DNA of 64,000 bases from the IMG/VR virus record IMGVR_UViG_3300029454_000001, positions 1-64,000 of that record; one strand, given 5' to 3'. The position numbers and the translations under genes are program-made. This DNA comes from a virus. Positions 45,445 through 45,613 of this stretch are shown piece by piece (position 1 is the stretch's first letter; each line of letters begins with the position of its first letter). Below the pieces are notes generated by a model. That model ran no database searches, was not told the origin of the DNA, and saw only the letters and a program-made list of their open reading frames with translations.

Positions 45445-45495
45445 GTCCAGTGCGCCGACTTGAACGGCATAAATCTCCCAACGAGAAACACTGGA
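45445..45495 (-). ncRNA. tRNA-like minihelix lacking an anticodon arm, followed by a U-tract
   Basis: Minus strand UCCAGUG-UU-UCUC-GUUGG-GAGA-UUUA-UGCCG-UUCAAGU-CGGCG-CACUGGA-C-UUUUUU: a 7-bp acceptor-like stem, a D-like hairpin and a canonical T-arm, with no anticodon arm. Confidence 0.4.
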
Positions 45496-45541
45496 ACTTT
45501 AAGGGGGAAAATGCAACTTCTGGCAATGGCAATTTTCCAGA

Positions 45542-45613
45542 TAGAAACAACAGGAATCGAACCTGTGTCACATGATATTCAATATCATTGCTCTACCACT
45601 GAGCTATGTTTCA
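45542..45613 (-). tRNA. Class-I cloverleaf tRNA with anticodon UGA (Ser codons) and a U1-U72 mismatch. Identity uncertain.
   Basis: UGAAACA-UA-GCUC-AGUGGUA-GAGC-A-AUGAU-AUUGAAU-AUCAU-GUGAC-ACAGG-UUCGAUU-CCUGU-UGUUUCU-A. The 5-nt variable loop is atypical for bacterial tRNA-Ser. Confidence 0.7.

What the first reader, a model, noticed from the sequence alone, without database searches (positions are those of the whole stretch)
45445..45613. Class-I tRNA with a serine anticodon (UGA) and U1-U72 mismatch, followed by a tRNA minihelix that lacks the anticodon arm and ends in a U-tract
The 72-nt gene at 45542..45613 folds into a textbook cloverleaf with a 5-nt variable loop, yet its anticodon is 5'-UGA-3'. 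Bacterial tRNA-Ser is class II, and SerRS uses the long variable arm as an identity element. This tRNA would therefore either be charged with a different amino acid, remain uncharged, or serve as a decoy. 46 nt downstream, the 51-nt element at 45445..45495 has a 7-bp acceptor-like stem, a D-like hairpin and a canonical T-arm (UGCCG-UUCAAGU-CGGCG). It has no anticodon arm and is immediately followed by UUUUUU. It could be a mascRNA-like tRNA mimic and could also act as the operon terminator.
Basis: partly seen in the sequence, partly recalled or inferred. Interest (0 to 1): 0.6.

Follow-up and report, generated by a model that had tools for sequence, protein, structure and literature searches.

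The report
Non-serine phage tRNA look-alike plus minihelix
At the end of its tRNA gene cluster, a gut phage carries a tRNA-shaped RNA whose anticodon differs between sibling phages, followed by a conserved mini-tRNA with no anticodon arm; both are most likely kept for their tRNA shape, as cutting signals or mimics, and not for reading codons.

Summary
Both features are real. The 72-nt gene (45542..45613, minus strand) is a well-formed class-I cloverleaf with anticodon UGA and a U1·U72 mismatch. It is one allele of a gene whose anticodon loop reads AUUGAAU, ACUCAAU, ACUGAAU or AUCCAAU in sibling phages, while the rest of the RNA barely varies. In more distant siblings the same slot holds a Thr(UGU)-like tRNA or versions with 5- or 6-nt "anticodon" loops. 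TCA still means serine, and the phage uses the standard code. It is therefore not a serine tRNA, and probably not a decoder.

The minihelix (45446..45495) has 25 natural variants. They are 97.8% paired, and 8 of 16 pairs show compensatory changes. A U-run always follows it, and the next gene starts about 20 nt later.

The neighbouring gene folds like Ro60. However, five complete sibling genomes keep both RNAs and have no Ro60-like gene, so the RNAs are not obligate Ro60 partners.

Best reading (0.45): both are tRNA-shaped processing and end-forming elements of the phage tRNA island, like t-elements or mascRNA. The polymorphic anticodon loop leaves a decoy or mimic role open.

Earlier reports of this scan found the same polymorphic tRNA in sibling phage DNA.

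The parts
45542..45613 (-). T1: a 72-nt class-I tRNA-shaped gene. The anticodon loop AUUGAAU lies at 45577..45583 and the anticodon UGA at 45579..45581. It has U1.U72, A73 and no encoded CCA.
   Evidence: ARAGORN. Rfam tRNA 62.3 bits. The body is under strong purifying selection while loop positions 33-35 are polymorphic. The cloverleaf of the slot family is 95.7% paired, with 11 of 21 pairs compensatory.
45519..45541 (-). Hairpin that starts one base after the discriminator: UCUGGAAA-AUUGCCA-UUGCCAGA, with a 7-nt loop. It is part of a conserved 46-nt spacer (45496..45541).
   Evidence: Spacer diversity is 0.011 against 0.157 at neutral sites. The stem co-varies between clades: UCUGGCAA/UUGCCAGA, UUCCAAUGA/UCAUUGGAA and UUCCUGCGG/UCGUAGGAA. 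The whole hairpin is inverted in some siblings.
45446..45495 (-). Anticodon-arm-less tRNA-like minihelix: a 7-bp acceptor-like stem, a 4-bp D-like stem with loop GUUGG, a 4-5-nt linker, and a 5-bp T stem with loop UUCAAGU.
   Evidence: Covariation in 14 and then 25 distinct variants. Model R1 finds it once in the window, and among loci chosen for a Ro60-like gene only in the close relatives, not the distant ones. The sampled bacterial-genome matches to the seed pattern are not this element.
45439..45445 (-). Discriminator-like C45445 followed by UUUUUU. A U-run of 3-9 bases is kept in all variants although the sequence after it differs.
45614..45672 (-). Leader between the Ro60-like gene and T1. 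It holds the hairpin CAGUUC...GAACUG and a small hairpin CCGU-GACAG-GCGG. It belongs to the Ro60 cassette, not to T1.
   Evidence: It is absent from Ro60-less siblings, whose homology to the window resumes at 45612.
45673..47124 (-). Ro60-like protein (DUF2828 + DUF7788/vWA with a MIDAS motif), 483 aa. This is context, not an obligate partner of the two RNAs.
   Evidence: Pfam and PHROG hits. The AlphaFold model has pLDDT 94.7. The top full-length PDB matches are Ro60/TROVE structures with E 1e-8 to 1e-6. The gene is absent from five complete siblings that keep T1 and the minihelix.
45053..45424 (-). First gene after the minihelix, a Cys-rich small protein. Its ATG is at 45424, 20 nt after the discriminator, and its Shine-Dalgarno AAGAGG lies at 45431..45436.

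Best explanation
T1 and the minihelix are the last two units of the phage's tRNA island. They are kept for the top half of the tRNA shape (acceptor stem, T arm and the D/T-loop elbow), not for decoding.

T1 is a former decoder of Thr or Trp type whose anticodon is no longer tied to an amino acid. The minihelix is the end point of the same trend, with the anticodon arm gone.

Inferred mechanism:
- The island is transcribed as one precursor together with the downstream genes.
- Host RNase P cuts at the 5' side of each tRNA-shaped unit.
- RNase Z, which acts on CCA-less precursors, cuts after each discriminator.
- This releases T1, the 46-nt hairpin spacer and the minihelix. It gives the upstream RNA a defined 3' end and gives the downstream mRNA a 5' end about 20 nt before its start codon.
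- The U-run may also stop part of transcription.

What is shown: the structures, their conservation and covariation, the variable anticodon, the standard genetic code, and independence from the Ro60-like gene. What is inferred: the cleavages, the lack of aminoacylation, and the fate of the released RNAs.
For: 1. Selection acts on shape, not on the anticodon. Within the T1 clade, diversity is 0.010 in the tRNA body, 0.011 in the spacer and 0.017 in the minihelix. It is 0.157 at third codon positions of the adjacent gene and 0.139 in the anticodon loop.
2. The same slot in siblings holds the same acceptor, D and T arms with anticodon loops of 7, 6 or 5 nt, sometimes with C33 or G33. All four helices keep pairing: 95.7% of cells are paired and 11 of 21 pairs are compensatory.
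3. The minihelix keeps a 7+5-bp acceptor/T stack, an invariant T loop UUCAAGU and an invariant D loop GUUGG, with compensatory changes in all three stems. By established enzymology this is the part that RNase P, RNase Z and the CCA-adding enzyme recognise.
4. No unit of the island encodes CCA. In four of the five read on this point (Gln, both Met tRNAs and T1) the discriminator is followed by U; in the tRNA-shaped unit at 47369..47482 it is followed by C.
5. In all variants the next gene's ribosome-binding site and ATG follow the U-run within 20-25 nt, whichever gene that is.
6. T1 is not a Ser decoder by design. TCA is exchanged with TCT and TCG at conserved Ser sites. The genome is open under code 11. 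True class-II tRNA-Ser(UGA) exists in siblings.
7. The window allele's loop can close into a 7-bp stem with a 3-nt loop, through A32-U38 and U33-A37.
Against:
- A pure processing signal does not explain why only loop positions 33-35 vary while A32, A36, A37 and U38 stay fixed. Nor does it explain why a few discrete alleles are reshuffled among near-identical backgrounds. This pattern hints that the loop is seen by something.
- The 46-nt spacer hairpin is as conserved as the tRNA-like parts, and the model leaves it unexplained.
- The acceptor-like stem of the minihelix can be extended by flanking A/U pairs, which could hinder RNase P.
- The conserved U-run would also suit a simple terminator.
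Confidence: 0.45

Rival explanations
1. T1 is an effector tRNA mimic: a decoy, bait or inhibitor for a host factor that reads anticodon loops, for example an anticodon nuclease of a defence system. The loop alleles are then kept by balancing or diversifying selection. The minihelix and hairpin are accessory or processing parts.
For: - Four discrete loop alleles occur on an otherwise invariant scaffold.
- There are at least 9 allele switches on trees of the 1.6-kb flank, including sister genomes whose flanks differ by less than 1%.
- Variation is confined to positions 33-35, with 32 and 36-38 fixed.
- An RNA-ligase gene (phrog_14301, E 2.6e-55) lies 2.3 kb away in the same island.
- Published work shows that phage tRNAs and their anticodon-loop changes counter tRNA-cutting defences (PMC10264068, PMC11555353).
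Against: - No target is known.
- The mean loop diversity (0.139) is no higher than the neutral level (0.157), so relaxed constraint plus recombination can give the same picture.
- Versions with 5- and 6-nt loops in sibling clades do not look like any host tRNA loop.
- Known counter-defence phage tRNAs are functional decoders, not uncharged decoys.
Confidence: 0.25
2. T1 and the minihelix are Y-RNA-like partners of the adjacent Ro60-like protein, forming a phage Ro60 ribonucleoprotein.
For: - The neighbouring gene has a Ro60 fold.
- Ro60 partners in bacteria and phages are encoded next to the gene, and the YrlA class mimics tRNA (PMC4201824, PMC12135203).
- Ro60-like genes in distant phages sit inside same-strand tRNA arrays.
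Against: - Five sibling genomes that are 99-100% complete keep T1, the hairpin and the minihelix but have no Ro60-like gene anywhere. A positive control shows the search works.
- About three quarters of the genomes found through the minihelix pattern lack the gene upstream.
- Conversely, the L067-L081 clade has the gene but no T1 or minihelix after it.
- There is no Rfam Y-RNA or YrlA match at E<=5 and no CGAA motif. The arm order is that of a normal tRNA, not the permuted YrlA order.
Confidence: 0.08
3. T1 is a working decoder. The window allele would read UCA/UCN and insert a non-serine amino acid, or be charged by SerRS after all. The UCA allele would be an opal suppressor and the CCA allele a tRNA-Trp.
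For: - The cloverleaf is canonical, with U8, A14, G18G19, G15:C48 and the T loop UUCGAUU, and it scores 62.3 bits.
- The window allele has U33 and A37.
- The three anticodons read the neighbouring codons UCA, UGA and UGG.
- A true phage tRNA-Trp in a sibling also has U1.U72.
- A few in-frame TGA codons occur in UCA-allele genomes, including one at the invariant Arg110 of the Ro60-like gene.
Against: - By the established identity rules, T1 lacks the Ser determinants (long arm, G73), the bacterial Trp determinants (G73, C35), the Thr determinant U36 and the Ala determinant G3:U70.
- TCA is used as Ser.
- UCA-allele genomes show no excess of TGA over TAA or TAG inside genes, and their large structural genes are open.
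- Most apparent in-frame TGAs were an alignment artefact of a variable C-terminus.
- The UCA allele carries C33.
- TGA ends 32 of the 85 ORFs of at least 100 codons on the coding (minus) strand.
Confidence: 0.08
4. This is ordinary decay plus a terminator. T1 is a dying tRNA gene, and the minihelix is just the hairpin of an intrinsic terminator that happens to look like a tRNA fragment.
For: - T1 has the lowest G+C of the island's tRNAs (37.5% against 50-53%) and a weak acceptor stem with a mismatch.
- A U-run follows the minihelix in every variant.
Against: - The T1 body is 15-fold less diverse than neighbouring synonymous sites, and its rare changes keep pairing: A1-U72, G.U.
- The invariant GUUGG and UUCAAGU loops and the three-way junction of the minihelix are not needed for a terminator, yet are strictly kept with compensatory changes.
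- The consensus terminator scan does not call it.
- Downstream genes have no room for a promoter of their own.
Confidence: 0.07

Closest known systems
t-elements of plant mitochondria (Forner et al. 2007, PMC1920247) and the vertebrate mascRNA/MALAT1 module
   Same: These are tRNA-like structures with a conserved T arm (GTTCRANYC fits the minihelix GTTCAAGTC) and a non-canonical or missing anticodon part. They sit at the boundary of other RNAs, where RNase P and RNase Z cleavage creates the neighbours' ends. They do not encode CCA.
   Different: Here the setting is a bacteriophage tRNA island. The minihelix has a D arm but no anticodon arm at all, a U-run follows it, and no transcript end has been mapped. 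The resemblance is functional, not one of descent.
YrlA-type bacterial and phage Y RNAs bound by Ro60/Rsr (Chen et al. 2014, PMC4201824; Thermus phage phiLo Ro60 with Yrl1/Yrl2, PMC12135203)
   Same: These are tRNA-mimicking non-coding RNAs encoded on the same strand next to a Ro60-fold gene. They have acceptor-like, D and T elements without a decoding anticodon. M. smegmatis YrlA is cut by RNase P and receives CCA.
   Different: T1 and the minihelix have the normal tRNA arm order, not the permuted one. They have no Ro-binding stem or CGAA motif and no Rfam match. They persist in complete sibling genomes that lack any Ro60-like gene.
Suppressor tRNAs of stop-codon-recoded gut phages, and counter-defence phage tRNAs with altered anticodon loops (PMC10264068, PMC11555353)
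   Same: This is a phage-encoded class-I tRNA whose sibling allele has anticodon UCA. The anticodon-loop changes sit on a conserved body.
   Different: The genomes use the standard code, and the UCA-allele genomes checked show no TGA recoding. The window allele reads a sense codon for which the body has no matching identity. Sibling versions have 5-6-nt loops and cannot decode.
Stable small RNAs of the phage T4 tRNA cluster (species 1 and 2 RNAs; from my own memory, not checked here)
   Same: These are non-tRNA RNAs encoded inside a phage tRNA cluster. They are matured by the tRNA-processing machinery and their function is unknown.
   Different: There is no sequence relation. The T4 RNAs are not anticodon-polymorphic and are not a D/T/acceptor three-way minihelix.

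Membership tests
Bacterial tRNA-Ser (class II) | Long variable arm, used by SerRS | tested here: not met
   The variable loop is 5 nt, GUGAC. Sibling phages carry a true 86-nt tRNA-Ser(UGA) with a long arm.
Bacterial tRNA-Ser (class II) | Discriminator G73 | tested here: not met
   A73 at 45542.
Bacterial tRNA-Ser (class II) | Anticodon for a Ser codon | tested here: met
   UGA in the window allele. Siblings with the same scaffold carry UCA or CCA.
Canonical elongator tRNA (Rfam RF00005) | Cloverleaf with conserved tertiary nucleotides, above the gathering score | tested here: met
   62.3 bits against a gathering score of 29. The minihelix gives no RF00005 match even at E<=5.
Canonical elongator tRNA (Rfam RF00005) | Anticodon loop under decoding constraint: 7 nt, U33, and an anticodon fixed within the gene lineage | tested here: not met
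   Positions 33, 34 and 35 are polymorphic in the T1 clade, including C33. Slot homologues have 5- and 6-nt loops.
Canonical elongator tRNA (Rfam RF00005) | Aminoacylation and use on the ribosome | not testable with these tools
   This needs charging assays or tRNA-seq.
Suppressor tRNA of a recoded phage | Anticodon complementary to a stop codon | tested here: not met
   The window allele is UGA, which reads UCA. Only the sibling allele is UCA.
Suppressor tRNA of a recoded phage | In-frame copies of that stop codon across phage genes | tested here: not met
   Open reading frames of at least 100 codons under code 11 cover 59.9 kb of the 78.3-kb minus strand. In two whole UCA-allele genomes, TGA is no more frequent inside genes than TAA or TAG, and a 1563-aa gene is open in all five checked.
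Y RNA / YrlA (Ro60 partner) | Encoded next to a Ro60 gene on the same strand and co-inherited with it | tested here: not met
   It is adjacent in the window. However, both RNAs are kept in five complete genomes without the gene, and the gene occurs without them in another clade.
Y RNA / YrlA (Ro60 partner) | Ro-binding terminal helix with the conserved GNCGAA-type motif; match to the Rfam models | tested here: not met
   There is no Y-RNA or YrlA match at E<=5 over 45300..48600. No CGAA occurs in 45436..45672 (sequence).
Y RNA / YrlA (Ro60 partner) | Binding to the Ro60 protein | not testable with these tools
   This needs a pull-down or a gel-shift assay.
t-element / mascRNA-type tRNA-like processing signal | Non-canonical tRNA-like fold with a conserved T arm (GTTCRANYC) and a 12-bp acceptor/T stack | tested here: met
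   GTTCAAGTC, with 7+5 bp kept by covariation.
t-element / mascRNA-type tRNA-like processing signal | Ends of the element coincide with mapped ends of neighbouring RNAs; cleavage by RNase P or RNase Z | not testable with these tools
   Only the position is known: 20 nt before the next start codon and 46 nt after T1.
Intrinsic terminator | G+C-rich hairpin directly followed by a U-run | tested here: inconclusive
   The U-run is conserved. The hairpin is a three-way junction that closes with a U-A pair, the consensus scan does not call it, and downstream genes lack room for a promoter.

The most novel reading that the evidence does not exclude
The anticodon loop of T1 is a swappable specificity module. 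A non-chargeable tRNA body presents one of several loop alleles (UGA, UCA, CCA, or the C33 forms). Phage populations would keep and exchange these alleles by recombination because each one baits, blocks or senses a different host factor that reads anticodon loops, such as a defence nuclease. The hairpin and minihelix would serve to excise and stabilise this RNA. This would be a new class of phage counter-defence RNA: a decoy tRNA with a population-level anticodon polymorphism.
Probability: 0.15. Interest if true: 0.85.

Novelty: new variant of a known kind. Interest (0 to 1): 0.55.

Why it matters
Gene finders label this gene "tRNA-Ser" in one phage and "tRNA-SeC/suppressor", "tRNA-Trp", "tRNA-Cys" or "tRNA-Leu" at the same slot in its siblings. 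Those labels could be misread as evidence for codon supplementation or for genetic-code change in gut phages. The family shows the anticodon part of a phage tRNA gene becoming free to vary, and in the minihelix disappearing, while the upper half stays under strong selection. This points to functions of phage "tRNA genes" other than decoding, such as transcript processing, end protection or mimicry. The analysis also separates these RNAs from the Ro60-like protein next door, which narrows the search for that protein's true RNA partners. The minihelix is a compact, covariation-supported RNA family of about 50 nt. It can be tested directly with RNase P, RNase Z and the CCA-adding enzyme.

Tried and rejected
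- Sense-codon reassignment of UCA: rejected. TCA is exchanged with TCT and TCG at the same sites in 55 sibling genes.
- Stop-codon recoding with T1(UCA) as suppressor: rejected as a genome-wide feature. An apparent link between the UCA allele and in-frame TGA codons mostly dissolved. The "codon 37" case was a misalignment of a variable C-terminus. That leaves four isolated TGA events: Arg-to-TGA early in the small Cys-rich gene in one sub-lineage, Gly14-to-TGA in the small ORF 42229..42432 in L012, codon 19 in L025, and Arg110 of the Ro60-like gene in one genome.
- Ro60 partnership: considered first because of the fold match, then downgraded by the Ro60-less siblings.
- Loop-loop pairing: I looked for pairing between the T1 anticodon loop and the minihelix T loop (UUGAA/UUCAA) or the leader hairpin loop. 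There is no co-variation between them across alleles, so I dropped the idea.
- Isotype ancestry by similarity: T1 is about equally similar to the slot's Thr-type gene and to a sibling's tRNA-Trp, roughly 71-74% by eye. BLAST against phage records gave only weak tRNA-Arg-like hits. Ancestry stays open.
None of the 35 tested fits the model. No host was inferred.
- Sequence-profile search of the neighbouring protein against PDB found only the vWA domain. The Ro60 relation needed the fold search.
- One literature search failed on a term that was too short.
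Full report
**Setting**

The window belongs to a single 78,343-bp phage record. Its G+C content is 37.7% and its genes lie mostly on the minus strand. It reads well under the standard bacterial code. ORFs of at least 100 codons cover 59.9 kb of the minus strand, and TGA ends 32 of 85 such ORFs.

Between a TerS-like gene and terL (40344..42038, PHROG terminase) lies an island of tRNA genes and tRNA-shaped RNAs. 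It contains:
- Gln(UUG) at 48355..48427
- Met at 48133..48205
- Met at 47541..47614
- a 114-nt tRNA-shaped RNA with a 51-nt insert in place of the anticodon loop, at 47369..47482
- the gene under study, at 45542..45613

An RNA-ligase gene lies at 42653..43240 (phrog_14301, E 2.6e-55).

ARAGORN and Rfam both call a 72-nt tRNA at 45542..45613 on the minus strand (62.3 bits). Its features are:
- anticodon loop AUUGAAU
- a 5-nt variable loop
- A73 and no encoded CCA
- a U1·U72 mismatch as the only non-standard pair

Forty-six nucleotides downstream lies the 50-nt element 45446..45495. It consists of a 7-bp acceptor-like stem, a D-like hairpin with loop GUUGG, a 4-nt linker and a T arm with loop UUCAAGU. 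A C and then UUUUUU follow it. A free-energy fold of the whole intergenic stretch gives both structures. It also closes the T1 anticodon arm into a 7-bp stem with a 3-nt loop, because A32-U38 and U33-A37 can pair.

**What the relatives show about the tRNA**

I used the neighbouring protein and a seed pattern from the minihelix to collect about 140 related loci from gut-virome contigs of roughly 75-85 kb. The position directly before the hairpin and minihelix (the "slot") always holds a tRNA-shaped gene, but its anticodon part differs.

In the window's own clade the scaffold (T1) is nearly invariant. The loop occurs as:
- AUUGAAU (anticodon UGA)
- ACUCAAU (UCA, with C33)
- ACUGAAU (UGA, with C33)
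- AUCCAAU (CCA)

Position 1 is U or A, so the U1·U72 mismatch is a polymorphism with A1-U72.

In sister clades the slot holds one of the following:
- a Thr(UGU)-like gene (T2) with the same D arm and T loop
- T2-like bodies with UAU
- bodies with the same acceptor stem as T2 but a 6-nt loop (UUACAA) or a 4-bp stem with a 5-nt loop (ACAAA, GUAAA)
- loops with G33
- a genuine class-II tRNA-Ser(GCU)

Across 26 distinct class-I slot sequences the cloverleaf is 95.7% paired. Compensatory changes occur in 11 of 21 pairs, including all five anticodon-stem pairs. The four helices are selected. The loop's length and letters are not.

**Selection within the T1 clade**

Nucleotide diversity across 28 distinct regions was as follows:

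| Region | Diversity |
|---|---|
| Third codon positions of the adjacent gene | 0.157 |
| tRNA body | 0.010 |
| 46-nt spacer | 0.011 |
| Minihelix | 0.017 |
| Anticodon loop | 0.139 |

In those 28 regions the loop diversity is all at standard positions 33 and 35. Position 34 also varies in the CCA allele found later. A decaying pseudogene is therefore excluded.

On trees built from the 1.6 kb upstream of T1, the loop allele changes at least 4 times among 26 genomes that have the Ro60-like gene. It changes at least 5 times among 19 genomes without it. Some of these changes separate sister genomes whose flanks differ by less than 1%. Two of the alleles differ at two sites. This looks like exchange of standing alleles by recombination, not repeated mutation. 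The mean loop diversity does not exceed the neutral level, so I cannot tell balancing selection from relaxed constraint plus recombination.

**It is not a serine tRNA, and there is no code change**

- At the seven TCA codons of the neighbouring gene, 55 sibling genes use TCA, TCG or TCT, or replace the residue. TCA therefore means Ser.
- A sibling phage carries a true class-II tRNA-Ser(UGA) of 86 nt. It also carries a true tRNA-Trp(CCA) that has U1·U72 and G73.
- By the established identity rules, T1 lacks the determinants for Ser (long arm, G73), bacterial Trp (G73, C35), Thr (U36) and Ala (G3:U70). This is knowledge, not a test made here. Poor or absent charging is the expectation.

For the UCA allele I looked for opal suppression:
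- A 1563-aa tail gene is open in five UCA-allele genomes.
- In two whole UCA-allele genomes, in-frame TGA is no more common than TAA or TAG relative to the window's ORFs.
- An apparent enrichment of TGA near T1 was largely a misaligned variable C-terminus.
- Isolated cases remain, including a TGA at the invariant Arg110 of the Ro60-like gene in one genome.

**The minihelix**

Among 14 and then 25 distinct natural variants, the three helices are 100% and 97.8% paired. Six and then eight of the 16 pairs change on both sides. Shuffles and slid registers do far worse. The loops GUUGG and UUCAAGU are almost invariant. They can form the G18/G19-Ψ55/C56 type elbow of a tRNA.

A covariance model finds the element once in the window. 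Among loci chosen for a Ro60-like gene it finds the element only in the close relatives, not in loci whose Ro60-like protein is 38-85% identical. The sampled bacterial-genome matches to the seed pattern are not this element.

A run of 3-9 U always follows it. The ribosome-binding site and start codon of the next gene come 20-25 nt after the element, although that gene differs between genomes.

**The Ro60-like neighbour**

The 483-aa protein (DUF2828, DUF7788/vWA, PHROG "RNA-binding protein") was modelled at pLDDT 94.7 from 70 diverse homologues. Its best full-length matches in the PDB are Ro60/TROVE structures:
- Thermus phage phiLo Ro60 (9kop, 9l5y)
- Xenopus Ro (1yvr, 2i91)

The E-values are 1e-8 to 1e-6 and the TM-scores 0.5-0.63. 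In distant phages such genes sit in same-strand tRNA arrays, often with about 115-nt tRNA-shaped RNAs just upstream. An earlier report of this scan reads those upstream RNAs as the Y-RNA-like partners.

T1 and the minihelix behave differently. In most genomes found through the minihelix pattern, homology to the window jumps from about 47484 to 45612. The stretch holding the upstream mimics, the Ro60-like gene and its leader is replaced there by about 170 nt of other non-coding sequence. Five such genomes are 99-100% complete, and three of them have terminal repeats. None has a Ro60-like gene anywhere. The same search finds the gene in two control genomes. Conversely, a clade whose protein is 85% identical has the gene followed by a plain hairpin, with no T1 or minihelix. 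The two RNAs belong to the end of the tRNA island. The Ro60 cassette is an insertion in front of them.

**Most likely mechanism**

The conserved parts of both RNAs are the 12-bp acceptor/T stack, the T loop, and the D loop that locks it. These are the parts recognised by RNase P, RNase Z and the CCA-adding enzyme (established enzymology). The part needed for decoding is free to vary in T1 and absent in the minihelix.

No unit of the island encodes CCA. In Gln, both Met tRNAs and T1 a U follows the discriminator, as suits RNase Z substrates; in the unit at 47369..47482 a C follows it. The minihelix sits exactly at the boundary with the downstream genes.

I therefore favour a t-element or mascRNA-like role. 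In this model, tRNA-shaped units direct host tRNA-processing enzymes to cut the island transcript. The cuts release small stable RNAs, give the upstream RNA a protected 3' end, and give the downstream mRNA a short 5' leader. The U-run may also terminate part of transcription. None of the cleavages is shown.

Two observations are not explained by this model:
- the restriction of T1 variation to positions 33-35 in a few recombining alleles
- the strong conservation of the 46-nt hairpin spacer

These observations keep a decoy or mimic function for T1 alive.

**Comparison with what is known, and novelty**

Functionally, the closest systems are plant-mitochondrial t-elements (PMC1920247) and mascRNA. 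In genomic setting, the closest are YrlA-type Y RNAs (PMC4201824, PMC12135203). The family tests for tRNA-Ser, suppressor tRNA and Y RNA each fail on at least one defining feature that I could test. The structural part of the t-element definition is met. The processing part is untested.

I found no paper describing this minihelix family or the anticodon-polymorphic gene. Earlier reports of this scan had already met the same T1 gene in sibling phage genomes and reached a similar "variable anticodon" reading. They had also proposed t-element-like roles for other phage minihelices. My analysis reached the polymorphism independently, before I consulted those notes.

What is added here:
- the link of the UGA allele to the others
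- the covariation proof for this minihelix
- the demonstration that both RNAs are independent of the Ro60-like gene

**Limits**

- There are no expression, end-mapping or charging data.
- The host is unknown.
- Trees of flanking DNA in recombining phages give only a lower bound on allele switches.
- Statements about aminoacylation identity rest on textbook rules from model bacteria.

Noticed in passing
window 45519..45541 (-); L176 and L220, just after their T1 genes: The 23-nt hairpin that follows T1 is present as its exact reverse complement in some siblings: TCTGGCAATGGCAATTTGCCAGA against TCTGGCAAATTGCCATTGCCAGA. The 7-nt loop is therefore flipped. This is a small DNA inversion between the hairpin arms.
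   Followed up: partly
G005 (contig of L050) 30413..31861; corresponds to window codon 110 of 45673..47124: The Ro60-like gene of one sibling genome that carries the UCA allele of T1 has a single in-frame TGA. It lies at an Arg that is invariant in 70 diverse homologues. The genome is complete, with terminal repeats. This could be an isolated nonsense variant, a sequencing error, or low-level suppression.
   Followed up: partly
L035 5572..5918; also L052, L058, L064, L175, L183, L190, L234: In several siblings a structured non-coding insert of about 350 nt sits between the slot tRNA and the hairpin/minihelix. It ends in a T-arm-like GGAAGTTCGAATCTTCC. No Rfam family matches it at gathering score.
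   Followed up: partly
window 47125..47482 (-) and loci L104, L105, L112, L115, L117, L125, L143 just upstream of their Ro60-like genes: RNAs of about 113-128 nt that match the tRNA model, with a large insert in place of the anticodon loop, recur immediately upstream of Ro60-like genes that are only 40-74% identical. An earlier report of this scan covers this.
   Followed up: partly
window 48345..48280, 47540..47510, 45541..45519 (-): Three tRNAs of the island read here (Gln, Met at 47541..47614, and T1) are each followed by a hairpin that starts one or two bases after the discriminator. Spacers between tRNAs are 150-350 nt and structured, unlike compact phage tRNA clusters.
   Followed up: no
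window 45053..45424 (-): The Cys-rich gene after the minihelix is about 45-50 codons in most siblings, with at least three different C-terminal versions. In the window it is fused to a longer downstream reading frame (123 aa). In some siblings an unrelated gene replaces it.
   Followed up: partly
window 20000..20067 (-): Rfam match to int-alpA RNA (RF02996) at 49 bits, above its gathering score.
   Followed up: no
L138 6626..6688: A pistol ribozyme (RF02679, 63.6 bits) lies inside the tRNA array next to a distant Ro60-like gene.
   Followed up: no
L172, about 100 nt upstream of its minihelix: A hybrid slot gene has a T1-like 5' acceptor strand, a Trp-type anticodon arm (loop CUCCAAA) and a T2-like 3' acceptor strand. 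Its acceptor stem cannot pair. This looks like a recombinant between slot alleles.
   Followed up: no
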